Assembly (NCBI GenBank): GCA_051892935.1
Contig: JBJFGS010000025.1
Location: 64,001-128,000 of the forward strand
Direction of reading: 5' to 3'
Source: Candidatus Coprovivens sp.
GTDB lineage: Bacteria > Bacillota_I > Bacilli_A > RF39 > UBA660
DNA length: 64,000 bases
In this document: in pieces, positions 23,513 through 33,022 of the stretch
Position numbering within the stretch: the first letter of the stretch is position 1
How the letters are laid out: each line of letters starts with the position of its first letter
Made by a program: the position numbers and the translations under genes
The notes under the pieces: model-generated
The model's database searches: none
The model's input: only the letters and a program-made list of their open reading frames with translations
What the model was told of the DNA's origin: nothing

Positions 23513-25180
23513 ATGGAAGCACTAGCTATCAGCGCAGCAAATTTAAATACCATAGAAGAAAACTTAGGAGCAGTTGCCAAAGAATTATCTGGAGTCATAA
23601 ATAATGTTTCAACAGTAAATGATCAAGTAAATAAAGTAGAATCAAAAGTAGAAACACTTAATGACGAAGTAAAAAGCCTAGTTAAAGAAATAAGAGAAAC
23701 TACTATAATAACAAACGCTCGTCAATCTATTATGTATAACAACTCAGAAATAGAAAAAAAATATGGATACTACGATAAAGTAAGAAGAACAACTGAATCC
23801 CTATTAGATGCTATTGAAAACTCATCAATAAGAAAAAATTCTCTTCAAGAACTAAATCAAGAAATTATTTTAAATAATCCAAATTACTGGTTATCTTCTG
23901 CTTTAGCTGCATTATCATCATGGTTATTAAACGATCGTACAAATACCGAAAAAGAATTAAATAACGCATTAAAAAAAGATAATAAAAAAACAAGTCTTTT
24001 CTTCTGTTTGATAAATTTAAAATTACAAAGAACTCAAACATCTTTAAATTGGTTAAATAAATATCTATCTCTTCAAAATCCAACTAAATTAGATAAAGAT
24101 TTTATAACTATCCTTGATTTAATTGCAACAGGTACTTTTGGTGATGAAGCCAAAAATACAGTATTAAAAAAAATAAATTTCTGGTTTAATAGTCTTAACT
24201 CTGAAAAAGAAATACAAAACGAACAAAAAAGCATATGGAGCAATTTTTTAAAAACAAAACAAGATACCGATATAAGAATGCCAAATTTAGAAAACTATTC
24301 CCCAGATGTATTCAAACTAAAAAACAACTTAGCAATAACATCAACTTATATAAATGTCCTTAATCATTTAGAAAACATTATAAAAAGCGACACATCAAAT
24401 AAAGGAATAAACGAAATAATAAATAATTTAATATACGAATACGAATCAAATGAACAAATATATCAAAAAGACAATTTAAAAAATAATCTTATTATAGAAT
24501 GTAATGGTAATAGAGAAGAAGCCGAAAAACTATTTAAAAAACAAGAAAGTATTTATAACAATGAAACCAATCTTCTAACCCTTTTAAGCAACATTATAAT
24601 ATATAAAAATTCATACAGTATTAGTAATGAAACACAAAAAATAGCTTTATCACTAATGAAAGAATACATCCAAAACGCTATTGAAGAAATGAATGAAGAA
24701 ATAAGTAAAGATAACATCAATATATCAATAGACAAATTTAAAACAACAACCAAAGATGGAAGTAATTTAAAAGAAGCAAAACAAGACTTAGAAGCTTATC
24801 TAAGTACGATATTTAATGAAGAAGATAAAGATTTAATAATTACTCTTTTAATAATAAATATTCTAGGAATAATAGGAATATTCATAACTTTAAACAGCAA
24901 AATTCTTTGTACATTATTAATAATAATAATTCTATTAGGAAATTTCATTTTACTATTTAAATTAAATCAAAGAAATAGGCTAAGAACAAGAGAAAAAAAT
25001 AAATTGAGAATCAATATAGGAAATATCCTTGAAAGAGTCTTAGCAGAAACAACAGATTACAACAACTTAATGTTAGAAGACAACGAACATTATATAGAAT
25101 TAAAAACATATCTAAACAATCTAGAAGCTGAAAACTACACAAAAAGTAACGACGAAAGAAATATTAATATAGGAGAATAA
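23513..25180 (+). CDS. Hypothetical protein: N-terminal coiled coil, helical-repeat core, two C-terminal TM helices (gene 1 of AAA operon)
   Basis: Heptad pattern over the first ~65 aa; YGYYDKVRR, PNYWLSSALAAL and KTSLFFCLI; paired hydrophobic helices near the C-terminus. Confidence 0.8.
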   Translation: MEALAISAANLNTIEENLGAVAKELSGVINNVSTVNDQVNKVESKVETLNDEVKSLVKEIRETTIITNARQSIMYNNSEIEKKYGYYDKVRRTTESLLDAIENSSIRKNSLQELNQEIILNNPNYWLSSALAALSSWLLNDRTNTEKELNNALKKDNKKTSLFFCLINLKLQRTQTSLNWLNKYLSLQNPTKLDKDFITILDLIATGTFGDEAKNTVLKKINFWFNSLNSEKEIQNEQKSIWSNFLKTKQDTDIRMPNLENYSPDVFKLKNNLAITSTYINVLNHLENIIKSDTSNKGINEIINNLIYEYESNEQIYQKDNLKNNLIIECNGNREEAEKLFKKQESIYNNETNLLTLLSNIIIYKNSYSISNETQKIALSLMKEYIQNAIEEMNEEISKDNINISIDKFKTTTKDGSNLKEAKQDLEAYLSTIFNEEDKDLIITLLIINILGIIGIFITLNSKILCTLLIIIILLGNFILLFKLNQRNRLRTREKNKLRINIGNILERVLAETTDYNNLMLEDNEHYIELKTYLNNLEAENYTKSNDERNINIGE

Positions 25181-25182
25181 CT

Positions 25183-25359
25183 ATGAACGAAGAACAATTT
25201 AAAAAACTAGATATAGGCAATGAAATAAAAATAAAACCAGCTATTATTAATCTTCCAGAAAAAAAAGATAAAGATAATAAAAATGATGAAAAAATAATAG
25301 TCGAACTTCCAACATGGAACATAGAACCACCTATAGAAATAAAAAGAGGCGAACAATGA
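25183..25359 (+). CDS. 58-aa peptide with C-terminal LPxWxIEPP motif (gene 2; not in ORF track)
   Basis: RBS AGGAG; starts 2 bp after the upstream stop and has an ATGA overlap downstream. MNEEQFKKLDIGNEIKIKPAIINLPEKKDKDNKNDEKIIVELPTWNIEPPIEIKRGEQ. Confidence 0.85.
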   Translation: MNEEQFKKLDIGNEIKIKPAIINLPEKKDKDNKNDEKIIVELPTWNIEPPIEIKRGEQ

Positions 25360-25790
25360 CATACGAAGAATGGTTAAATACAATTGAAGAATTAAAACAC
25401 CCAAACCTAAGCATAGATAATCTAAATAAAATAAAAAACACCTCCTTAAATGAAAATATTAATCCTTTATTAATTCCTAAAATAGAAAATTTAGTTAAAG
25501 AAAGATTAAACAACAGCATAAATAAAATAATTTTAAATCTTAGTGAAATATTTAGCGATATAAACTACTTAGATCTAACACTACTAAATTTTAAAAAAGA
25601 AATAAACTATATATTAGAGATAATCTCTATAAAACAATTACCAGAAGAAAAACAAAAAGAATTAAAAGACATGATAAAAGCCGAAAGTAATAATGTAATA
25701 GAAATTCTAAATAAAGAAGCACAAAAGCTTGATTACACAGGTTCCTTATCATCAATAATAAATAACTATAGAATAAAATGGAGTGAATAA
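25356..25790 (+). CDS. Hypothetical helical protein (gene 3)
   Basis: Starts MTYEEWL at the ATGA overlap; 144 aa, amphipathic helical pattern. Confidence 0.8.
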   Translation: MTYEEWLNTIEELKHPNLSIDNLNKIKNTSLNENINPLLIPKIENLVKERLNNSINKIILNLSEIFSDINYLDLTLLNFKKEINYILEIISIKQLPEEKQKELKDMIKAESNNVIEILNKEAQKLDYTGSLSSIINNYRIKWSE

Positions 25791-25791
25791 A

Positions 25792-27288
25792 ATGAATTAC
25801 AATGAAGCAAAAGAATACTTAAAAAGATATTTAAAAGCAAGAATACCAGTTATTATAATTAATACAGCAGAAAAAAATCGTTCATTAAGATTAATTAAAG
25901 AAATTGCCAATGAAGCAAATATGAATTTTAATTTATATCAAATGTCTCAAGGAATATCTGATTTAAAAACAAATACAATAAAAAGCGAAGATAAAACAAT
26001 AATGAGTGCCATTGATTACATTGTAAACGAAATAAGACACCAAGAAAATAGTAATTTTATCATAAGTGATATATCAGATATATACGAATCAACCACCATT
26101 TCAAGGTACCTTGTAGATGTAATAGAAAAAGCAGAAACCATGTCTGGAGTAATAGTTTTAGTTACAAACGAACCAATTTGGTCAAATATTCAAAGATTAG
26201 GAATAACAATCAAACTAAACTACCCTACAGAATCAGAATTAAAAGAAACAATAATGAACACTATTTCTCCTTATAAAAACCAAATTGAAATAGAATGGGA
26301 TGAAATAGACTATGTAAATGCTGCAACATATCTTCAAGGATTAAGTGAAATGGAAGTAAAAAATATTATCTCATCATTAATTGTAAAAGGTTCAATAAAA
26401 AAAGAAGATTTAAAAGAACTAAAATATGCAAAACAAACTTTATTTAATGAAATAGCAGGGTTAGAAGCTATTGAAGTAGATGATGACTTTCAAATAGCTG
26501 GACTAGATAATTTAAAAGAATGGTTATATGAAAAGAAAACTTTAATGGATCCAGCAAAAAAAGAAGAGCTATCAAAAAGAGGAATTGCTGCTCCTCGAGG
26601 AATTCTACTAACTGGAGTACCAGGTTGCGGAAAAAGTCTTTGTTCAAAAGCAACAGCAAGTATCTTTAATATTCCCTTATATAGACTTGATTTAGCAACT
26701 GTTCAAGGTCAATACGTTGGTCAATCAGAAAAACAACTCAAAGAAGCTCTAGATACAGCAGAATACGTTTCCCCTTGTGTTCTTTGGATTGATGAAATAG
26801 AAAAAGGATTAAACGATTCAAATTCTAGTGTTACATCAAAAATGATTGGCCAATTCCTATTTTGGTTACAAGAATGTGAAAAGCCCGTATTCGTAATAGC
26901 ATCAGCTAATAGCGTTGAATCACTACCACCAGAACTAATAAGAAAAGGACGTTTTGATGAAATATTCTTCGTTGATTTACCAAACGCATCCGAAAGAAAA
27001 CAACTACTAAAATTATATTCAAATAAATATTTAAAAGTAGAAATAAGTGAAGAACTAAAAAACAAACTAGTCTCAATAACCGAAGGATTCGCAAGCGCTG
27101 ATATTGAGGCAACAATTCGTAATATAGCATATAAATTAATTGCCAATAAAGATATCGAATTAACAGAAAGACTTATAATAGAAGAATTATCAAAAGTAGT
27201 ATCACTATCCAAAACAAATCCAGAAAAAATAGAAAAAATACGAAAATGGGGACAAGAAAGAGCAACCAAAGCATCAAAAGATATATAG
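25792..27288 (+). CDS. Ycf46-like AAA+ ATPase (gene 4)
   Basis: ARIPVI N-terminus, GLDNLKEWL, Walker A GVPGCGKS, pore loop YVG, Walker B LWIDEIEKG, LPPELIRKGRFDE and IRKWG tail. Confidence 0.92.
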   Translation: MNYNEAKEYLKRYLKARIPVIIINTAEKNRSLRLIKEIANEANMNFNLYQMSQGISDLKTNTIKSEDKTIMSAIDYIVNEIRHQENSNFIISDISDIYESTTISRYLVDVIEKAETMSGVIVLVTNEPIWSNIQRLGITIKLNYPTESELKETIMNTISPYKNQIEIEWDEIDYVNAATYLQGLSEMEVKNIISSLIVKGSIKKEDLKELKYAKQTLFNEIAGLEAIEVDDDFQIAGLDNLKEWLYEKKTLMDPAKKEELSKRGIAAPRGILLTGVPGCGKSLCSKATASIFNIPLYRLDLATVQGQYVGQSEKQLKEALDTAEYVSPCVLWIDEIEKGLNDSNSSVTSKMIGQFLFWLQECEKPVFVIASANSVESLPPELIRKGRFDEIFFVDLPNASERKQLLKLYSNKYLKVEISEELKNKLVSITEGFASADIEATIRNIAYKLIANKDIELTERLIIEELSKVVSLSKTNPEKIEKIRKWGQERATKASKDI

Positions 27289-27296
27289 GTGATAAA

Positions 27297-28124
27297 ATGA
27301 AAGAAAAAAAAGACATCAAATATCTTGTCAAAAGTAACAATTACATAGGACTATTATTCTTCGCGCTAGTACTAGCATCACTATTATATATATTAAAAAA
27401 AGAAGAAACAACATTTCAAAACATCGAACCAACTATGAATGAAATAACAAACTTACAAGAACAACCTAAAGAAATAACAGAGCCAACAAAAGAAATATCA
27501 GATCTCCAAAACTATCTAAATACCGGAGATCCAAACACATTTAATATATATCAATCACATTATATATTAAATGAAAAAATAACAAAAGATAACCTTAATA
27601 ACGAAACTCTTCTATATATGGCATATAAATATATAGAAAAAACAACCGACTTCACAAACTATATAAACTACCTGGGTTGTGATGAAGCTCAAATCATAGG
27701 ACTAGATAATCAAATAACACAATGTGGTGGAACCAAAATAAATGCTACTACTTATACGATGAACAGATATATTACAAAAGAATTATTAAATAAAACAATC
27801 AAAAAAATATTTAACATAAATCTAACTCAATATACAAACTTTTATACAAGTGAAGATAATCTATGTTACTATTTAAAAGACGAATTTTTATGTGTTTCCC
27901 ATCAAACAAATAAAATAACAAATTATGGCGAAAAAGAATTTCAAAAAGCATACAAATATAATAATAAAATAGAAATTATAGAAAAATATCATTTCATAAA
28001 TAATGGAATATATTACAAAGGTTTTAATAGCCAAGAAATAGGTGAAGGATATTATAAAAGTACCTTCAATAAAATAAATGGTTCATATTACTGGGAAAGC
28101 ACAGAGTATTACGAAATAAACTAG
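27297..28124 (+). CDS. Membrane-anchored extracellular hypothetical protein
   Basis: N-terminal TM helix; C-terminal YKSTF...YYWEST resembles 54206..54973. Confidence 0.7.
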   Translation: MKEKKDIKYLVKSNNYIGLLFFALVLASLLYILKKEETTFQNIEPTMNEITNLQEQPKEITEPTKEISDLQNYLNTGDPNTFNIYQSHYILNEKITKDNLNNETLLYMAYKYIEKTTDFTNYINYLGCDEAQIIGLDNQITQCGGTKINATTYTMNRYITKELLNKTIKKIFNINLTQYTNFYTSEDNLCYYLKDEFLCVSHQTNKITNYGEKEFQKAYKYNNKIEIIEKYHFINNGIYYKGFNSQEIGEGYYKSTFNKINGSYYWESTEYYEIN

Positions 28125-28184: not shown

Positions 28185-28220
28185 TAAGATGTAAAATATA
28201 AAAGAAAGGAATTGGTAAAA

Positions 28221-28988
28221 ATGCGTAAATTAAATGAATTATTTCAAGAATTAGGAATATCTAAAGTAAGATTAGCAAAATATTTAGGAGTTTCAAGACA
28301 AATGGTCTATAACTATCTAGAACTAAATGATATAAATAAATGGCCAAAAGAAAAAAAATTATTACTATTTAAATTATTAGATATAAATGATAGTAACGCA
28401 ATAGAAGATATTCAAGTAACAACAGACTACTTAATGAATGTTGAAAGTAGATTAAATCAAGGAGTAAAAAGTACGGCTGAAATGGATAATGGTTTAAACT
28501 TCAAAGGTTTAAATAAAGAATCACAAGTACTCCTAAGCGATATAACTTATCTTCTAAAAGAAAAATTAAGTGATGAGACAAAAGAAGAAAACTACTATGC
28601 TATTTTATATCTATATCATCTACTACAATCTTTAGATAATGTTCCAGAAATTAAATATATATTTGGTTATATGAGTAAAACAACAGGATTTACCAATCCA
28701 GAAGAATATAAATTTCAAGAAGATAAACAATTTATTTTTGAAGGTATCCTATACTCAGCTTTAACATTATACAACAACGGAGGAGCATCTCGTTCTAAGT
28801 TAGCCGAATCACATAAACGTTTTGTACAAGAAATAGAACAAAAAAATGAAGAAAAACTTTCTCGTACACAACAACTAAATACAATAAAAATTCAAGCACT
28901 TAAAGAACTAGGATTCACAGAAATAAACGAAAGCAATGCTGCCGAAGTATTTGAAAAAATAGCAGAAATTCAATCAAGAAAGGTTTAG
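28221..28988 (+). CDS. XRE-family HTH transcriptional regulator
   Basis: LGISKVRLAKYLGVSRQMVYNY. Confidence 0.85.
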   Translation: MRKLNELFQELGISKVRLAKYLGVSRQMVYNYLELNDINKWPKEKKLLLFKLLDINDSNAIEDIQVTTDYLMNVESRLNQGVKSTAEMDNGLNFKGLNKESQVLLSDITYLLKEKLSDETKEENYYAILYLYHLLQSLDNVPEIKYIFGYMSKTTGFTNPEEYKFQEDKQFIFEGILYSALTLYNNGGASRSKLAESHKRFVQEIEQKNEEKLSRTQQLNTIKIQALKELGFTEINESNAAEVFEKIAEIQSRKV

Positions 28989-29021: not shown

Positions 29022-29603
29022 ATGAAAAAGAAAATAATAATATTATCTAGCTTACTATTATTAATTAGTGGATGTAAAGAAAAAGAAATAGAATGTGAAG
29101 AGCAAAAAGAAGAAACACTAATAAAATATAATAATACAAAAATAACCGAAAAAGATGCTCTAGAAGAAACAAAAGAATATATCTTTCCAGTTATATTTGA
29201 AAAAGTAATAGGAGATATTTTAACAGAAGAAATGAAGGATAAACTCGAAGATGGAAATAACTACGCAGAAGAAACAATAGAAGAACTAAAAACTTACTAT
29301 GAAGATGAACTTGAAAAAGCAATAATATCCTATACATCATATAAAACAATAGAAGAATATAAAAGATCAATTTTAATAAGTTATTTACAAGAAGAATATT
29401 TTAAAGAATATATTAGCAATAAAGAAAAAATAGATTACAACGAAATTACCGATGATAATTTAACTAATTATTATAAAAAATATTATGTTGAGAGTATAAA
29501 CGACTTATTAAAAAAATATAATGTAACATTCGAAAATAAAGATTATAAAAAGATGTATGAAAAATATATAGAAGAAAAAGAAACTTACTATAATAATAAC
29601 TAA
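29022..29603 (+). CDS. Lipoprotein, PrsA-like chaperone scaffold without a parvulin domain
   Basis: Lipobox LISGC; ITEKD..., TIEEYK..I..YLQ and LLKKYNVTFENKDYK resemble the PrsA N- and C-terminal regions. Confidence 0.6.
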   Translation: MKKKIIILSSLLLLISGCKEKEIECEEQKEETLIKYNNTKITEKDALEETKEYIFPVIFEKVIGDILTEEMKDKLEDGNNYAEETIEELKTYYEDELEKAIISYTSYKTIEEYKRSILISYLQEEYFKEYISNKEKIDYNEITDDNLTNYYKKYYVESINDLLKKYNVTFENKDYKKMYEKYIEEKETYYNNN

Positions 29604-29819
29604 AGCACATTTTGTGCTTTTTTAATAATTTAAAGTGTCCTATTAGCATAATAAGAATAGAGAAGGGGAAGATAAAGAAATTAAAGAAAACATTCTTAAA
29701 AATAGCTAAAAACGCCCAAAAATATATAACATAAATAAAATTAATAAGTATGAAAAAATAATAATTAAAAAATAAAAAGATCAAACTCATAAACATAACA
29801 TTTGTTCGCTAGCAAAAAT

Positions 29820-29865
29820 TAAAAAACTCCCCCTATTCAAAAATGCAAAAATTAATAGGGGACTC
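29820..29865 (-). terminator. Candidate minus-strand intrinsic terminator
   Basis: On minus: CCCCTATT-loop-AATAGGGG(GAG) followed by TTTTTT. Confidence 0.5.
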
Positions 29866-29915
29866 GAATTAAAAAAATACAAATAAAACATTCAAAAAAA
29901 AGATACAATTATTCA

Positions 29916-30222
29916 ATGAGATAATGAAACTAATCATATAATTAAATCTCGAATCCTAATTTGAAATAACCACAGTCCATAGATTGATAATTTATCAATT
30001 ATTTAAATGTCGATTCCAATTTCATAATACAGATTACGAAATATTAATTCCACGAGATGATAAATTGTTCATCTTTTAAAATCTCGATGCCGATTTAAAA
30101 CAATAAATAAGAAACGAGACGATGAAGTATTCATCAAAAGAAATCTCGATTCCTAATTTAAAAGTTTAAATAGAAATCAAGCTAAAGAACTAATAAGCTA
30201 ACAGAAATTCGTTTCCAATAAA
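29916..30222 (-). repeat. Array of five degenerate structured repeats (candidate ncRNA)
   Basis: Core TCG at 29949, 30010, 30084, 30146 and 30209. Minus-strand consensus AAATT(A)GGAAT-CGAGAT-~7nt-hairpin-ATCTCG. Confidence 0.65.
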
Positions 30223-30419
30223 TGCCAAACCAAAAACGAACAAATGTATAACATATAAGAAAATAATAATTTTAAATTTTTTCTTAAATTAAAGATTAAT
30301 TAAATAATAATTATATAATATATATTAATAAAATAAAACTAAAGAAAAATAACATAATAAAGAAATAAATTAACAAAATAATTTTCTATATATAAATGAA
30401 TTTTTAAATTAAATATTTA

Positions 30420-30447
30420 ACTTCGTATAATATATATTATGTTAACC
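30420..30447 (+). other. dif site (Xer chromosome-dimer resolution site)
   Basis: ACTTCGTATAA-TATATA-TTATGTTAACC matches 24/28 of B. subtilis dif as recalled (ACTTCCTAGAA-TATATA-TTATGTAAACT). It is intergenic, lies at the gene-orientation switch and is ~1.7 kb from a Xer gene. Confidence 0.9.
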
Positions 30448-30530
30448 AATTAAATATTTTATAAAAAATAAATACTATTATTCATAATAATTATATTTAT
30501 AAAGTTTAAAAAAGCTCATATTAAAAACTT

Positions 30531-31259
30531 CTATAAAGATATGATAATTATTATAATTCCAAATATAATCCCCATAATAAGCCATTTATAACATTTATAA
30601 GAGATTCCTTCTTTTAAAATTTTTAAAACACTAAGACTAATCATAATACCACCAGTAATTATTAGAATAATACTCATAATAAAATCATTAATAAAATTAT
30701 TTAAAAAAATAATACTAAATAAAGCACCAAAAACTTCCCCCATAGAACTAATAATAGTCATAAAAAAAGCTTTCCCCCTACTTCCAGTACTATAATAAAT
30801 AGGTAAACTAATACATATTCCTTCCGGAATATTATGAATCATAATAATAAAACTCATCTTCAAACCTAAAGAAAGATTATTACTACTAGTTAAAGCACAA
30901 ATAACTCCTTCAGGAACATTATGAACAAATAAACTAAGCATACTAAGAATACCTATCTTATATAAGCTACTCTCCCCTACAATATTTCTATCAATAACAA
31001 AAACAATTATATAACCAATCAATAATAAAATTAAACCATACACAAAAATACCAAATATACTAAAATCATTATTAACCAATAATAAACCATCAGGAATTAA
31101 TTCTATAATAGAGATTAAAAACATAACTATAAAAGATAACCCCATTGAAAAAGAGATTAACTTATTTTTATATTTTACATCAATAAATAATAGTATATTT
31201 CCTAATATAGTAGCAAATCCAGCTATAAAAGTTATAATTAAAGGATAAATATTTTTCAT
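30531..31259 (-). CDS. ZIP family metal transporter (ZupT/GufA-like)
   Basis: Duplicated HNVPEG / HNIPEG motifs, multi-TM. Confidence 0.92.
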   Translation of the reverse strand: MKNIYPLIITFIAGFATILGNILLFIDVKYKNKLISFSMGLSFIVMFLISIIELIPDGLLLVNNDFSIFGIFVYGLILLLIGYIIVFVIDRNIVGESSLYKIGILSMLSLFVHNVPEGVICALTSSNNLSLGLKMSFIIMIHNIPEGICISLPIYYSTGSRGKAFFMTIISSMGEVFGALFSIIFLNNFINDFIMSIILIITGGIMISLSVLKILKEGISYKCYKWLIMGIIFGIIIIIISL

Positions 31260-31499: not shown

Positions 31500-32123
31500 T
31501 TATTTTTTTACCAAACAAGTAACTGCTTCTCTATCTTTTGTCTCACTATTAACATAATAGCAAGTACATAAATTTTCCCTGCAGCTACCACAATCAACAG
31601 CAGTAGCACATTTCGTTAATCTAATTTTCTCGCTATTTTGAGGGCTAACTGAACCAGGGTTATTAACAACTTTTTCTAAACCTGCAACTTTAGTTGCTCC
31701 TTGCTTATTTAAATTAGTATATGAACTAGGAATAATTATAGTAAAGCCATCATCGCACTTAGTTTCATACAAATTAGTAAGTTTTTCGTTAAGTACTTTA
31801 AATTCAGCCAATTGAGCGATACATGAATTTAAATTTATATTATCACAATAATATTTATTATCTAAGTAAGTAAACCAACTACCAACTATATCCAAACTAT
31901 AATTCTGTATTTCTTTTCTTTTAGCATCTTCTTTTTTATATTCCTCAAGTAATTCTATTACAGGTTCTAGTTCACTTACACTTCCACTAACATAATACTT
32001 AGTCAAACTATTCGTAACAATCTCCGTATAATCTGAAGTTTTAAAATCAATAATTTTTTTACCTCCAAAAATAATTCCTACAATCAATAATATTATTAGT
32101 ATAATAGGTAAAGCCTTTTTCAT
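31500..32123 (-). CDS. Membrane-anchored hypothetical protein with Cys-rich C-terminus
   Basis: N-terminal TM helix; KCATAVDCGSCRENLCTC; ATGA overlap with the recombinase gene. Confidence 0.7.
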   Translation of the reverse strand: MKKALPIILIILLIVGIIFGGKKIIDFKTSDYTEIVTNSLTKYYVSGSVSELEPVIELLEEYKKEDAKRKEIQNYSLDIVGSWFTYLDNKYYCDNINLNSCIAQLAEFKVLNEKLTNLYETKCDDGFTIIIPSSYTNLNKQGATKVAGLEKVVNNPGSVSPQNSEKIRLTKCATAVDCGSCRENLCTCYYVNSETKDREAVTCLVKK

Positions 32124-33022
32124 AAATCCTCCTTATAAATTTTATTTCTTGGATGACATTGATAATCACTCTTTATTTTCTCATTTACTAAATGAGCATA
32201 TATTTGTGTAGTAGATATATCTTCGTGTCCAAGTAATTCTTGTATAATTCTCAAATCTGCCCCATTTTTTAATAAATGAGTAGCAAAAGAATGTCTAAGT
32301 ACATGAGGAGATACATTTTTCTCTATTCCAGCTCTTTTACATTCTTTCTTTAATATTTTAAAAAATCCTTGCCTACTTATATTAGTCAAACTATTAGAAA
32401 TAAACAAATAATCGGATACTTTATCTTTTAAAATAATATTTCTATATTCCGTAACATAAATAGTCAAATATTTTAAAGCTAAATCAGTAACAGGAACTAT
32501 TCTTTCCTTTTTGCCTTTCCCCATAACTCTTATAAAACAATTTTGAACATCAACATCAATTAATTTTAAATTACACAATTCAGTTATTCTAAGCCCTGTT
32601 GCATAAAGTAATTCTAACATTGCTTTATTTCGATAGTCATAAGGGGTTAATAAGTTTATATTAAGTAACTTATTTACTTCATCTTCAGTTAAATAAGTTG
32701 GTAATTTCCTAGCATTCTTAGGACTAGAAATATTACTACAAGGATTTTCCTTTATAATATTATCATTAACTAAAAAAGTATAAAAAGAATTAATAACTGT
32801 TGTATAATGAGAAATAGTTCTAGAATTCTTATCTTGTATTGTAGCAATATATTTTTTTAAATCATCATAAGTATTATTAACGACATTTCCTTTAAAGAAA
32901 ATATCAAAGTCTTTAAGATCATTTAAATAACTCTTTAAAGTATTATTAGATAACTTTCTTTCGAATTCTAAATACTTTAAATACTTATTAATATATTCAC
33001 TAGGAACATATTCATCTTTCAT
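32120..33022 (-). CDS. xerD: Tyrosine recombinase XerD-like
   Basis: LSNNTLKSY, LYATGLRITEL, GKGKKER, HVLRHSFATHLL and LLGHEDISTTQIY. XerD versus XerC is judged from RQG and QELLGH. Confidence 0.88.
   Translation of the reverse strand: MKDEYVPSEYINKYLKYLEFERKLSNNTLKSYLNDLKDFDIFFKGNVVNNTYDDLKKYIATIQDKNSRTISHYTTVINSFYTFLVNDNIIKENPCSNISSPKNARKLPTYLTEDEVNKLLNINLLTPYDYRNKAMLELLYATGLRITELCNLKLIDVDVQNCFIRVMGKGKKERIVPVTDLALKYLTIYVTEYRNIILKDKVSDYLFISNSLTNISRQGFFKILKKECKRAGIEKNVSPHVLRHSFATHLLKNGADLRIIQELLGHEDISTTQIYAHLVNEKIKSDYQCHPRNKIYKEDL

What the first reader, a model, noticed from the sequence alone, without database searches (positions are those of the whole stretch)
29820..30222. Five-unit covarying hairpin array next to dif: candidate novel structured RNA
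Seen: in a ~930-bp gene-free region, a motif recurs at 61, 74, 62 and 63 bp spacing. On the minus strand each unit reads AAATT(A)GGAAT-CGAGAT-~7-nt A/T bulge-inner hairpin-ATCTCG. Inner stems differ in sequence yet still pair (GATGAA/TTCATC, GATGAA/TTTATC, ATTGATA/TATCAAT, ATGA/TCAT, AGCT/AGCT). Two substitutions are G-U wobbles on minus but A-C mismatches on plus, which points to a minus-strand RNA, and a terminator-like hairpin follows at 29865-29820. Four of five units have GGA just before the stem; the units at 30010 and 30209 pair weakly. Known: CsrB/RsmZ sponges and type III antitoxins are repeat-built RNAs. Inference: a multivalent protein-sponge or processed RNA array. An alternative is phased DNA-binding sites (about six helical turns apart) for a terminus-organising protein.
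Basis: partly seen in the sequence, partly recalled or inferred. Interest (0 to 1): 0.82.

Follow-up and report, generated by a model that had tools for sequence, protein, structure and literature searches.

The report
SOS-flanked hairpin repeat array beside dif
Beside the site where this uncultured gut bacterium resolves its replicated chromosomes lie five tandem copies of a small hairpin element that related bacteria carry singly at the same spot; it fits no described family and its function is unknown.

Summary
The repeat array is real. Five ~62-nt units lie on the minus strand (29908-30219), 200 nt from a dif site. 24 of 27 genomes of the genus have a unit and 19 of 27 have two or more. 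Each unit is a bulged hairpin: P1, a 10-nt 5' bulge, P2, then a loop.

The same hairpin occurs once (rarely 2-3 times) in at least 20 other genera of the family. It lies within 50-440 nt of a dif-like site in 21 of 26 such loci, in any orientation.

Only in this genus is it amplified. Here it is bracketed by LexA-type SOS boxes matching those at lexA, and it ends in a conserved intrinsic terminator.

Covariation is modest and confined to the outer stem. CsrA is absent in 0 of 27 genomes. There is no toxin gene downstream and no Rfam match.

My best reading (about 0.4) is a DNA-damage-inducible non-coding RNA made of repeated protein-binding hairpins. A DNA-level, dif-associated hairpin or binding site (about 0.3) is not excluded. 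No expression data could be obtained.

The parts
30420..30445 (+). dif-like Xer recombination site (26-bp core)
   Evidence: Read. It lies at the GC-skew switch. The stretch is 95-100% conserved even in other families of the class (query 634-671). It is present beside the array in every same-genus locus that reaches it. An XerD-type recombinase gene lies 1.7 kb away.
30237..30250 (-). Proximal LexA-type SOS box. On the minus strand it reads as a TATAC half, a 4-nt spacer and a GTTCG half, overlapping a -10-like hexamer.
   Evidence: Its 11-nt core has only 5 exact copies in the genome, and 2 of them flank this array. The same core stands upstream of lexA, a RhuM-like gene and a radical-SAM/HTH pair. 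Related boxes stand at recA, pcrA/uvrD and recX. It is present upstream of 12 of 16 same-genus arrays.
30168..30219 (-). Unit 1 (degenerate copy)
   Evidence: cmsearch gives 23.4 bits, E 3e-5. Spacing to unit 2 is 63 nt.
30105..30161 (-). Unit 2. The 3' flank pairs with the GGAA of the 5' flank, giving a long hairpin.
   Evidence: cmsearch gives 49 bits. Sequence read. It has orthologues in two relatives.
30043..30098 (-). Unit 3 (best copy, with GGAAU on both flanks)
   Evidence: cmsearch gives 54.4 bits. It holds the only exact CGAGAT..ATCTCG pair in the window, where 0 are expected by chance. It is over 90% conserved in two relatives.
29968..30024 (-). Unit 4 (weak outer stem, its own inner palindrome)
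   Evidence: cmsearch match at 29981-30024, model positions 2-45, 32.4 bits.
29908..29963 (-). Unit 5
   Evidence: cmsearch gives 41.2 bits.
29821..29863 (-). Intrinsic-terminator-like hairpin (C-rich and G-rich arms, about 15-nt loop) followed by a U-run on the minus strand
   Evidence: Read. Both arms are invariant in a three-species alignment. The same hairpin ends the arrays of relatives. My regex finds only 3 such hairpins in the whole genome. The simple scan missed it because its loop exceeds 8 nt.
29795..29808 (+). Distal LexA-type SOS box, inverted relative to the proximal one, just beyond the terminator
   Evidence: Comparable distal boxes stand in relatives L011, L010 and L020.
28212..28988 (+). 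Context: conserved HTH protein gene that accompanies dif and the hairpin element across the family
   Evidence: 73-96% identity in the best 80 loci. Orthologues (52-74% identity) lie next to the unit in 10 of 16 other-genus loci. Only weak HTH Pfam hits.
32120..33022 (-). Context: XerD-type tyrosine recombinase gene
   Evidence: Pfam Phage_integrase 1e-52. NCBIfam recomb_XerD scores 327.8 bits, just below its cut-off of 329.6.

Best explanation
The array is a genus-specific tandem amplification (2-8 copies, about 62-nt period) of a family-wide element of about 45-60 nt that lives next to dif. The element folds as a bulged hairpin. P1 is AAUCGA/UCGAUU plus a variable extension. A 10-nt A/U-rich bulge sits on the 5' strand. 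P2 is GAUGRAU/AUYCAUC, closed by a 4-nt loop.

In this genus the array is most likely transcribed from the minus strand. The promoter would be overlapped by a LexA operator, and the transcript would stop at the conserved terminator at 29863-29821. That gives an RNA of about 400 nt that is repressed by LexA and released after DNA damage.

Because the conserved letters sit at fixed places in and around the hairpin, and the copy number has been multiplied, the RNA most likely acts by binding several copies of one protein. It would be a decoy or scaffold rather than an antisense regulator. The partner is unknown and is not CsrA.

What is shown: the repeats, their conservation, the dif linkage, the pairing potential of P1 with compensatory changes, the SOS-type boxes, and the terminator.

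What is inferred: transcription, its direction, LexA control, and protein binding.
For: 1. Reality and conservation. 24 of 27 genus genomes have a unit and 19 of 27 have two or more. 24 of 50 spacings between successive units are 57-66 nt.

2. Transcription-unit layout. The same order is found in same-genus loci: dif, about 180-225 nt of AT-rich DNA, the SOS-type box, the units, then a terminator with a U-run on the unit strand.

3. LexA link.
- lexA is present.
- Boxes of the B. subtilis/S. aureus type CGAACN4GTTCG (PMC9578287, Table 1 passage) precede recA, pcrA/uvrD, recX and lexA.
- The array box shares its 11-nt core with the lexA operator region.
- 2 of the 5 exact genomic copies of that core flank the array.
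- The box is present at 12 of 16 same-genus arrays.

4. Hairpin under selection.
- Across 30 units outside the arrays, 72% of cells pair, against 31-47% when the partner is slid.
- 27 cells have changes on both sides, reached by 5 of 500 shuffles.
- 5' and 3' halves pair better within a unit than between units: z -4.7, 0 of 500 permutations; z -3.8 within the genus.
- Compensatory changes occur inside the otherwise invariant TCGA: TTTA/TAAA, ATGA/TCAT and TTGA/TCAA.
- P1 and P2 are non-concentric inverted repeats. That fits a folded single strand better than a duplex site for a dimer.

5. The whole 456-nt candidate transcript folds with z -4.1 against shuffles.

6. It matches no known family: Rfam gives 0 hits at gathering score and only E >= 1.6 noise below it.
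Against: - No expression evidence of any kind could be obtained.
- Promoter direction is ambiguous. Read towards dif, the same box is followed by equally good -10 hexamers, as in the genome's RhuM-like and radical-SAM SOS promoters.
- The SOS box is missing at 4 of 16 same-genus arrays. It is also missing at 0 of 14 tool-labelled other-genus loci, plus 0 of 10 loci of unlabelled genus. It is therefore not part of the ancestral element.
- G-U and A-C cells are about 1:1, and the two strands fold equally well. Selection on an RNA helix of one strand would not predict this.
- RNAalifold predicts no consensus structure. Mutual information is low. The inner stem shows no covariation.
- The shuffle controls used are known to be liberal for related sequences.
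- In other genera the unit has no fixed orientation relative to dif, the HTH gene or nearby hairpins. A canonical terminator downstream on the unit strand was found for only 1 of the 20 units scanned before the script stopped.
- Tight linkage to dif is not explained by a trans-acting RNA.
Confidence: 0.4

Rival explanations
1. The element works at the DNA level, in association with dif. The hairpin/palindrome acts as duplex, cruciform or transiently single-stranded DNA. It would be a binding or structural site for a terminus- or Xer-associated factor. One candidate is the very conserved HTH protein encoded alongside. In this genus the site has been multiplied.
For: - A dif-like site lies within 50-440 nt in 12 of 16 other-genus loci; 3 of the 4 misses lie at contig ends. 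The same holds in 9 of 10 loci found later with a second model.
- All four orientations relative to dif occur, as expected for a near-palindromic DNA site.
- The HTH orthologue is adjacent in 10 of 16 loci. It is 82% identical per alignment column across genera.
- There is no G-U over A-C excess and no strand asymmetry in folding.
- Mirrored half-site changes could also arise from co-evolution with a dimeric protein.
Against: - P1 and P2 have different centres, because the 10-nt bulge is always on the same arm. That is awkward for a duplex site.
- P1 extensions differ freely between genera yet stay complementary: GCA/UGC, AAA/UUU, GGAA/UUCC.
- The HTH protein is present beside dif in many genomes without any detectable unit, for example L086.
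- LexA boxes and a strand-specific terminator around the array suggest transcription.
- Variable orientation argues against a polar fork barrier or a KOPS-like role.
Confidence: 0.3
2. The units are duplicated intrinsic-terminator-like hairpins. They would form a transcriptional insulator between convergent genes at the terminus and have no function of their own as a product.
For: - A unit-like hairpin (29 bits, E 1.6e-6) with a perfect 10-bp stem and a U-run stands directly after gyrA in the own genome. Solitary unit-like matches on contigs other than the array's were listed for about 15 other genus genomes; their gene context was not read.
- Some array units have U-rich 3' flanks.
- The array lies between convergent genes.
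Against: - Terminators do not normally keep a 10-nt bulge and about 15 fixed letters across 20 genera.
- Most units lack a U-run.
- A strong terminator already closes the array.
- Neither the dif linkage nor the LexA boxes are explained.
Confidence: 0.12
3. The element is a relic or miniature form of a mobile element that uses Xer recombination to integrate at dif (an IMEX). Its hairpin would be a single-stranded-DNA structure of that element.
For: - The element sits immediately beside dif, on either side and in either orientation. That pattern could arise from integration followed by decay of one flanking site.
- Extra degenerate dif-like sites stand near the unit in L139 and L145.
- That IMEX elements integrate at dif is recalled knowledge. 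The abstracts of PMC6744903 and PMC9226527 were seen only in the listing.
Against: - No element genes are present and no second dif-like site flanks the array in the window.
- The element is inherited throughout the genus at one locus with orthologous units.
- The unit shows no resemblance to dif arms beyond an ATAA/TTAT core (my reading).
Confidence: 0.1
4. The array is a CsrB/RsmZ-type sponge for CsrA, or a type III (ToxI-like) antitoxin array, or a degenerate CRISPR array.
For: The units carry GGA motifs (G9 and G10 are invariant). They are tandem repeats followed by a terminator.
Against: - CsrA is found in 0 of 27 genus genomes. FliW and Hfq are not found in the own genome.
- GGA lies in the stem flank, not in a loop.
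- No same-strand gene follows the terminator.
- The units are about 69% identical per column, with no unique-spacer pattern.
- Rfam gives 0 matches.
Confidence: 0.03

Closest known systems
CsrB/RsmZ-type protein-sponge RNAs
   Same: One RNA built from repeated short hairpin units carrying a conserved purine-rich motif (GGA). The proposed mode of action, multivalent protein binding, is the same.
   Different: There is no CsrA in the genus (0 of 27). GGA is at the base of the stem rather than in loops. The units are 62 nt long with a bulged two-part stem. There is no Rfam match. The element is linked to dif and to SOS boxes.
Rcd RNA of the ColE1 cer site (recalled, not read here)
   Same: A small RNA gene physically tied to a Xer recombination site, thought to link dimer resolution to cell division.
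   Different: Rcd is plasmid-borne, single-copy and transcribed from within cer when multimers form. Here the element is chromosomal, lies 50-440 nt from dif, and is repeated and flanked by LexA boxes in one genus. No sequence or structure comparison was possible.
LexA-regulated small transcripts of the SOS regulon (for example the tisB/istR and dinQ loci of E. coli; recalled, and the listing of PMC2887945)
   Same: An intergenic, non-protein locus with a LexA operator, some of them tandemly repeated.
   Different: Those loci encode small toxic peptides with antisense RNAs. Here no conserved ORF exists: the longest unit-borne ORFs are 12-22 codons and are not conserved in L010.
ToxI-type type III antitoxin arrays (recalled)
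   Same: A promoter, tandem RNA repeats and a terminator.
   Different: ToxI repeats are about 36 nt, near-identical, and followed by the toxin gene. Here the units are 62 nt and about 70% identical, and the next gene is convergent.
Accessory sequences of plasmid Xer sites (cer/psi) and B. subtilis Ter/RTP sites (recalled)
   Same: Protein-binding DNA repeats placed beside a recombination site or in the terminus, next to the gene of a small DNA-binding protein.
   Different: Those sites have a fixed side, spacing and polarity. The unit here occurs on either side of dif, in either orientation and at variable distance.

Membership tests
CsrB/RsmZ sponge RNAs | The cognate CsrA/RsmA protein is encoded in the genome | tested here: not met
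   PF02599 is found in 0 of 27 genus genomes, while the controls ring in E. coli, B. subtilis and T. maritima. FliW is not found in the own genome.
CsrB/RsmZ sponge RNAs | Many GGA motifs exposed in hairpin loops or single-stranded linkers | tested here: inconclusive
   GG is invariant just 5' of P1, and often a second GGAAU follows 3' of it. None is in a loop. In some units the GGAA pairs with the 3' flank.
CsrB/RsmZ sponge RNAs | Match to the Rfam covariance models | tested here: not met
   0 matches at gathering score in the window. Only three unrelated hits with E >= 1.6 in 29600-30530.
Type III toxin-antitoxin (ToxI-like) array | An endoribonuclease toxin gene directly downstream on the same strand, after the terminator | tested here: not met
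   Downstream genes are convergent: the lipoprotein ORF 29022-29603 (+), and the HTH gene in relatives. The only same-strand ORF (29464-29796) overlaps the lipoprotein gene in antisense and was not searched against families.
Type III toxin-antitoxin (ToxI-like) array | Near-identical repeats of about 34-36 nt | tested here: not met
   The period is 61-74 nt. Mean column identity is 69%.
CRISPR array | Identical repeats alternating with unique spacers | tested here: not met
   The units diverge along their whole length, and the inter-unit linkers are partly conserved between species. cas genes were not searched for.
LexA (SOS) regulon member | An operator of the Firmicutes type CGAACN4GTTCG at the promoter | tested here: met
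   The proximal box (30237-30250) and distal box (29795-29808) share the 11-nt core found at lexA and at other SOS-type promoters of this genome. The consensus is from PMC9578287, Table 1. One half-site of each box is degenerate.
LexA (SOS) regulon member | LexA and RecA are encoded and have their own boxes | tested here: met
   LexA_DNA_bind and Peptidase_S24 match at C18:50739-51332. RecA matches at 1e-141 with a box upstream.
LexA (SOS) regulon member | Induction by DNA damage, and LexA binding | not testable with these tools
Rho-independent terminator (for 29821-29863) | A G+C-rich stem followed by a U-tract on the transcribed strand | tested here: met
   A 9-10 bp stem is followed by six U, one A, then five U on the minus strand. 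It is conserved in relatives. The loop of about 15 nt is unusually long.
dif / Xer site (for 30420-30445) | A conserved site of about 28 bp with two inverted arms around a central region, one per chromosome at the skew switch, with a Xer recombinase present | tested here: met
   Its resemblance to the Firmicutes dif consensus is recalled, not computed.

The most novel reading that the evidence does not exclude
The hairpin is the core of a previously undescribed class of dif-linked RNA, a chromosomal counterpart of the plasmid cer/Rcd checkpoint. Its gene would be kept within a few hundred bases of dif because Xer/FtsK activity at dif, or the replication state of the terminus, gates its expression. 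In this genus it would have been multiplied and placed under LexA, so that DNA damage and unresolved chromosome dimers feed one RNA signal that holds back division or recombination.
Probability: 0.07. Interest if true: 0.9.

Novelty: new variant of a known kind. Interest (0 to 1): 0.62.

Why it matters
I found no description of a conserved structured element kept beside the chromosome dimer-resolution site. Rfam gives no match. Two full-text searches listed nothing relevant (listings only).

If it is an RNA, it adds an SOS-controlled, repeat-built regulatory RNA to a large, uncultured, reduced-genome clade of gut Bacilli that lacks CsrA and Hfq. It would also suggest a link between DNA damage, the terminus and regulation.

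If it acts as DNA, it marks an unrecognised accessory site of dif, possibly together with a very conserved HTH protein of unknown function.

Either way, it gives a concrete handle of about 50 nt for experiments on terminus biology in Firmicutes outside Bacillus.

Tried and rejected
CsrA sponge: rejected.

Hfq partner: Hfq was not found in the own genome.

Type III antitoxin and CRISPR: rejected on layout and repeat identity.

Small ORFs in the units (an ATG is nearly invariant at the start of P2). The SD-like GGA lies 16 nt upstream. The ORFs are 12-22 codons, and the last, hydrophobic one has no counterpart in L010. Rejected by reading; no formal test was run.

Polar replication-fork barrier or KOPS-like role: rejected, because all four orientations relative to dif occur.

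Conserved element in the dif-to-box spacer: rejected. Only dif and the box are conserved there. The BLAST matches to that stretch come from those two parts plus AT-rich sequence.

cis-Leader of DUF1540 genes. The unit lies 60-90 nt upstream of a DUF1540 gene in L137, L139, L179, L181 and L182. The own genome has no DUF1540, so this cannot be the general role.

HTH protein identity:
- No sequence relative with a solved structure.
- AlphaFold2 mean pLDDT is 66.7, with only residues 1-88 confident.
- Foldseek against the PDB finds nothing at E <= 0.001; the top hits are generic XRE/Cro-type HTH domains.

Hits outside the family: three weak matches in another family lie in coding-like sequence without a dif site and are taken as chance.

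Expression: no RNA holder listed.

Terminator orientation scan: my script stopped at an N after 20 of 37 units. The partial result (1 of 20 with a site downstream on the unit strand, 6 of 20 on the opposite strand) is confounded by the bidirectional terminators of the HTH gene. I did not repeat it.

Supplementary files of papers were not consulted.

Groups: 'same genus' and 'other genus' are the tool's labels for loci L010-L025 and L133-L189. For loci L029-L108 the genus is not given. In some searches I sorted those by hand, partly by whether they carried arrays. Counts that depend on this sorting are flagged in the report.
Full report
WHAT IS THERE.

The window is 22-31% G+C, and its GC skew changes sign at about 30 kb. 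Between a lipoprotein-like ORF (29022-29603, +) and a ZIP-family transporter gene (30531-31259, -) lies a 930-bp stretch without genes. It holds a 26-bp dif-like site at 30420-30445. An XerD-type recombinase gene lies 1.7 kb further on.

A model built from relatives places five units at 30168-30219, 30105-30161, 30043-30098, 29981-30024 and 29908-29963. Their spacings are 61, 74, 62 and 63 nt.

The core word GGAATCGAGAT, with at most one mismatch, occurs four times in the window, and all four are here. It occurs only 11 times in the 1.8-Mb genome. The array ends in a hairpin of C-rich and G-rich arms (29828-29863) followed by a U-run on the minus strand.

No tRNA and no Rfam family matches at gathering score anywhere in the window. 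With relaxed thresholds only three unrelated hits with E >= 1.6 appear in 29600-30530.

CONSERVATION.

The genome belongs to uncultured gut Bacilli. Related public records are titled, for example, Candidatus Coprovivens, Coprobacillus sp. CAG:605 and 'uncultured Tenericutes'. NCBI places Ca. Coprovivens in Bacilli incertae sedis.

In the genus as held, 24 of 27 genomes have at least one unit and 19 of 27 have two or more, up to eight. The three genomes without a match are 64, 65 and 88% complete.

In the same-genus loci the order is always the same. It runs dif, then 178-225 nt of AT-rich DNA that is not conserved in sequence, then a conserved box, the units, and the C/G hairpin with its U-run. 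Of 50 spacings between successive units, 24 are 57-66 nt and 9 are 120-140 nt. Orthologous units can be followed across three species, and the terminator arms are invariant among them.

THE UNIT IS OLDER THAN THE ARRAY.

- A sequence-only model (R1) finds one unit, rarely two, in 17 of 150 other genomes sampled from the order. All 17 are in the same family, in 16 genera.
- A second model with structure (R2) finds it in 24 of 150 genomes, in 20 genera of 86.
- Both searches used stricter filters, so these counts are floors.
- Outside the family, only three weak matches in coding-like sequence were seen among 137 genomes. None was near a dif site, and I take them as chance.

In these other genera the unit sits 50-440 nt from a dif-like site. 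This holds in 12 of 16 loci, with 3 of the 4 misses at contig ends. It also holds in 9 of 10 further loci that were not used to build the model.

All four arrangements occur, by my count:
- unit before dif in the same sense: 9 loci;
- dif before unit in the same sense: 7 loci;
- dif in the opposite sense before the unit: this genus plus 2 loci;
- unit before dif in the opposite sense: 3 loci.

A 258-aa HTH protein gene (window 28212-28988) accompanies the pair. Its orthologues (52-74% identity) lie next to the unit in 10 of 16 other-genus loci. In 80 loci fetched by that protein, dif is usually within about 1.2 kb of its 3' end.

STRUCTURE.

The units align almost without gaps. The fixed letters are GG (in this genus only), A-TCGA, the TG of GATG, and A and T in CATCT.

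The best model is a bulged hairpin. P1 is AAUCGA/UCGAUU plus a variable extension. Ten A/U-rich nucleotides bulge from the 5' strand. P2 is GAUGRAU/AUYCAUC, closed by a four-base loop. Single-sequence folding of many single units gives exactly this shape.

An alternative pairing is also possible, in which CGAGAU pairs with AUCUCG and the inner stem is shifted. It scores similarly inside the genus: 73% versus 80% of cells paired.

Evidence that pairing is selected:
- In 30 units outside the arrays, 72% of cells pair, against 31-47% when the partner is slid.
- 11 of 15 pairs show changes on both sides.
- 27 cells have such double changes, reached by 5 of 500 shuffles. The covariation score is reached by 17 of 500.
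- The 5' and 3' halves of a unit fit each other better than halves of different units: z -4.7, 0 of 500 permutations; z -3.8 within the genus.
- The invariant TCGA/TCGA is replaced by TTTA/TAAA in L179 and L181, by ATGA/TCAT in L174, and by TTGA/TCAA in a solitary copy in the own genome. L174, L179 and L181 were found with a structured model, which favours paired sequences.
- P1 extensions differ between genera but remain complementary.

Evidence against:
- RNAalifold returns no consensus structure for either alignment.
- No column pair exceeds 0.20 bit of mutual information.
- The inner stem shows no excess of within-unit pairing (z +1.3).
- The outermost flanks alone show none either (z -1.2).
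- G-U cells are no more frequent than A-C cells.
- Half of all units have a C-A mismatch at the base of P1.
- The two strands fold equally well.

So a hairpin is supported, but the data do not say which strand folds.

THE SOS BOXES.

The conserved box upstream of the array, read on the minus strand, is a TATAC half, ATTT, then a GTTCG half (30250-30237). This is the Firmicutes LexA operator type CGAACN4GTTCG (PMC9578287, Table 1 passage), with one degenerate half.

The genome encodes LexA. Boxes of this type precede recA, a pcrA/uvrD helicase gene, recX and lexA itself. They also precede a RhuM-family gene and a divergent radical-SAM/HTH pair.

The 11-nt core of the array box has five exact copies in the genome. 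Two of them flank the array in inverted orientation: 30237-30247, and 29798-29808 just beyond the terminator.

The proximal box is present at 12 of 16 same-genus arrays and missing in L017, L019, L021 and L024. Distal boxes also stand in L011, L010 and L020. No such box lies within 350 nt of the unit in 14 tool-labelled other-genus loci, nor in 10 further loci of unlabelled genus. LexA control is therefore an addition made in this genus together with the amplification.

The direction of the promoter is not settled. Towards the array, the box overlaps a TATAAC/TATACA hexamer and would cover the start site. Its GTTC half could also serve as a -35, as at lexA. Towards dif, the box is followed by TATAAT-like hexamers at the same distance as in the RhuM-like and radical-SAM promoters. 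The strand-specific terminator at the far end of the array is what tips me towards the array.

WHAT IT IS NOT.

- CsrA is not found in any of 27 genus genomes. FliW and Hfq are not found in the own genome.
- No same-strand gene follows the terminator, so the type III toxin-antitoxin layout is not met.
- The units are about 69% identical per column and lack a repeat/spacer pattern, so this is not a CRISPR array.
- The small ORFs that start at the conserved ATG are not conserved.
- Variable orientation excludes a polar Ter- or KOPS-like role.
- In five genomes the unit stands 60-90 nt upstream of a DUF1540 gene. The own genome has none.

VERDICT.

It extends far outside the given coordinates: a hairpin element tied to dif across about 20 genera of one family, amplified and bracketed by LexA boxes in one genus.

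I rank the readings as follows:
- a damage-inducible, repeat-built non-coding RNA that binds several copies of an unknown protein: 0.4;
- a DNA-level hairpin or binding site that works with dif or with the neighbouring HTH protein: 0.3;
- terminator-like insulator hairpins: 0.12;
- a relic of a Xer-exploiting mobile element: 0.1;
- the named families (Csr sponge, ToxI-like array, CRISPR): 0.03.

No expression data were available. No RNA holder was listed.

The two literature searches aimed at such an element listed nothing relevant (listings and abstracts only). What I say about Rcd/cer, ToxI, RTP/Ter and IMEX elements is recalled.

Noticed in passing
window 28212-28988 (+); loci L029-L108: This 258-aa protein has an N-terminal XRE-type HTH and an unassigned C-terminal part. 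It is unusually conserved: 73-96% identity in the best 80 loci, and 82% mean column identity in a 25-sequence alignment. Its gene almost always ends within about 1.2 kb of dif. It has no Pfam or NCBIfam family above cut-off, no PDB relative, and only a partly confident AlphaFold2 model. It may be a terminus- or Xer-related factor.
   Followed up: partly
G000:C27:2859-2914 (+), locus L155 1500-1575: A solitary unit-like hairpin (29 bits) with a perfect 10-bp stem and a U-run stands directly after gyrA and before tadA-dnaX. Solitary unit-like matches on contigs other than the array's were listed for about 15 other genus genomes; their gene context was not read. Three copies of a palindrome with a CACGTG core flank it in the own genome.
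   Followed up: partly
G000: C18:51380-51425, C14:4559, C24:40027, C14:77166, C15:20861, C36:35257, C19:4753, C50:81130: This is a candidate LexA regulon of the organism. SOS-type boxes stand at lexA (two boxes), recA, pcrA/uvrD, recX, a RhuM-family gene, a divergent radical-SAM(SPASM)/HTH_3 pair, a PHP-domain gene, and one contig-end site.
   Followed up: partly
loci L137, L139, L179, L181, L182 (60-90 nt downstream of the unit): In five genomes of other genera the unit lies just upstream of a small DUF1540 (Cys-rich) protein gene on the same strand, in the order dif, unit, gene. The own genome has no DUF1540.
   Followed up: partly
window 29464-29796 (-): A 110-codon, very hydrophobic ORF starts immediately after the distal SOS box and overlaps the 3' end of the lipoprotein gene in antisense. 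It is probably an AT-rich artefact. However, an SOS-induced small membrane protein cannot be excluded.
   Followed up: no
window 23513-28124 (+): A four-gene block lies upstream of the HTH gene: a 555-aa coiled-coil/membrane protein, a 158-aa protein, a 501-aa AAA+ ATPase (with a weak NCBIfam hit to the anti-phage ATPase IteA, far below cut-off) and a 292-aa protein. Only the ATPase has a family assignment. It could be a defence or stress module.
   Followed up: no
loci L017, L021, L133, L135, L144: In some relatives the C-rich/G-rich hairpin that closes the array here is interleaved between units, without a U-run. This suggests that the ancestral repeat module was unit plus hairpin.
   Followed up: no
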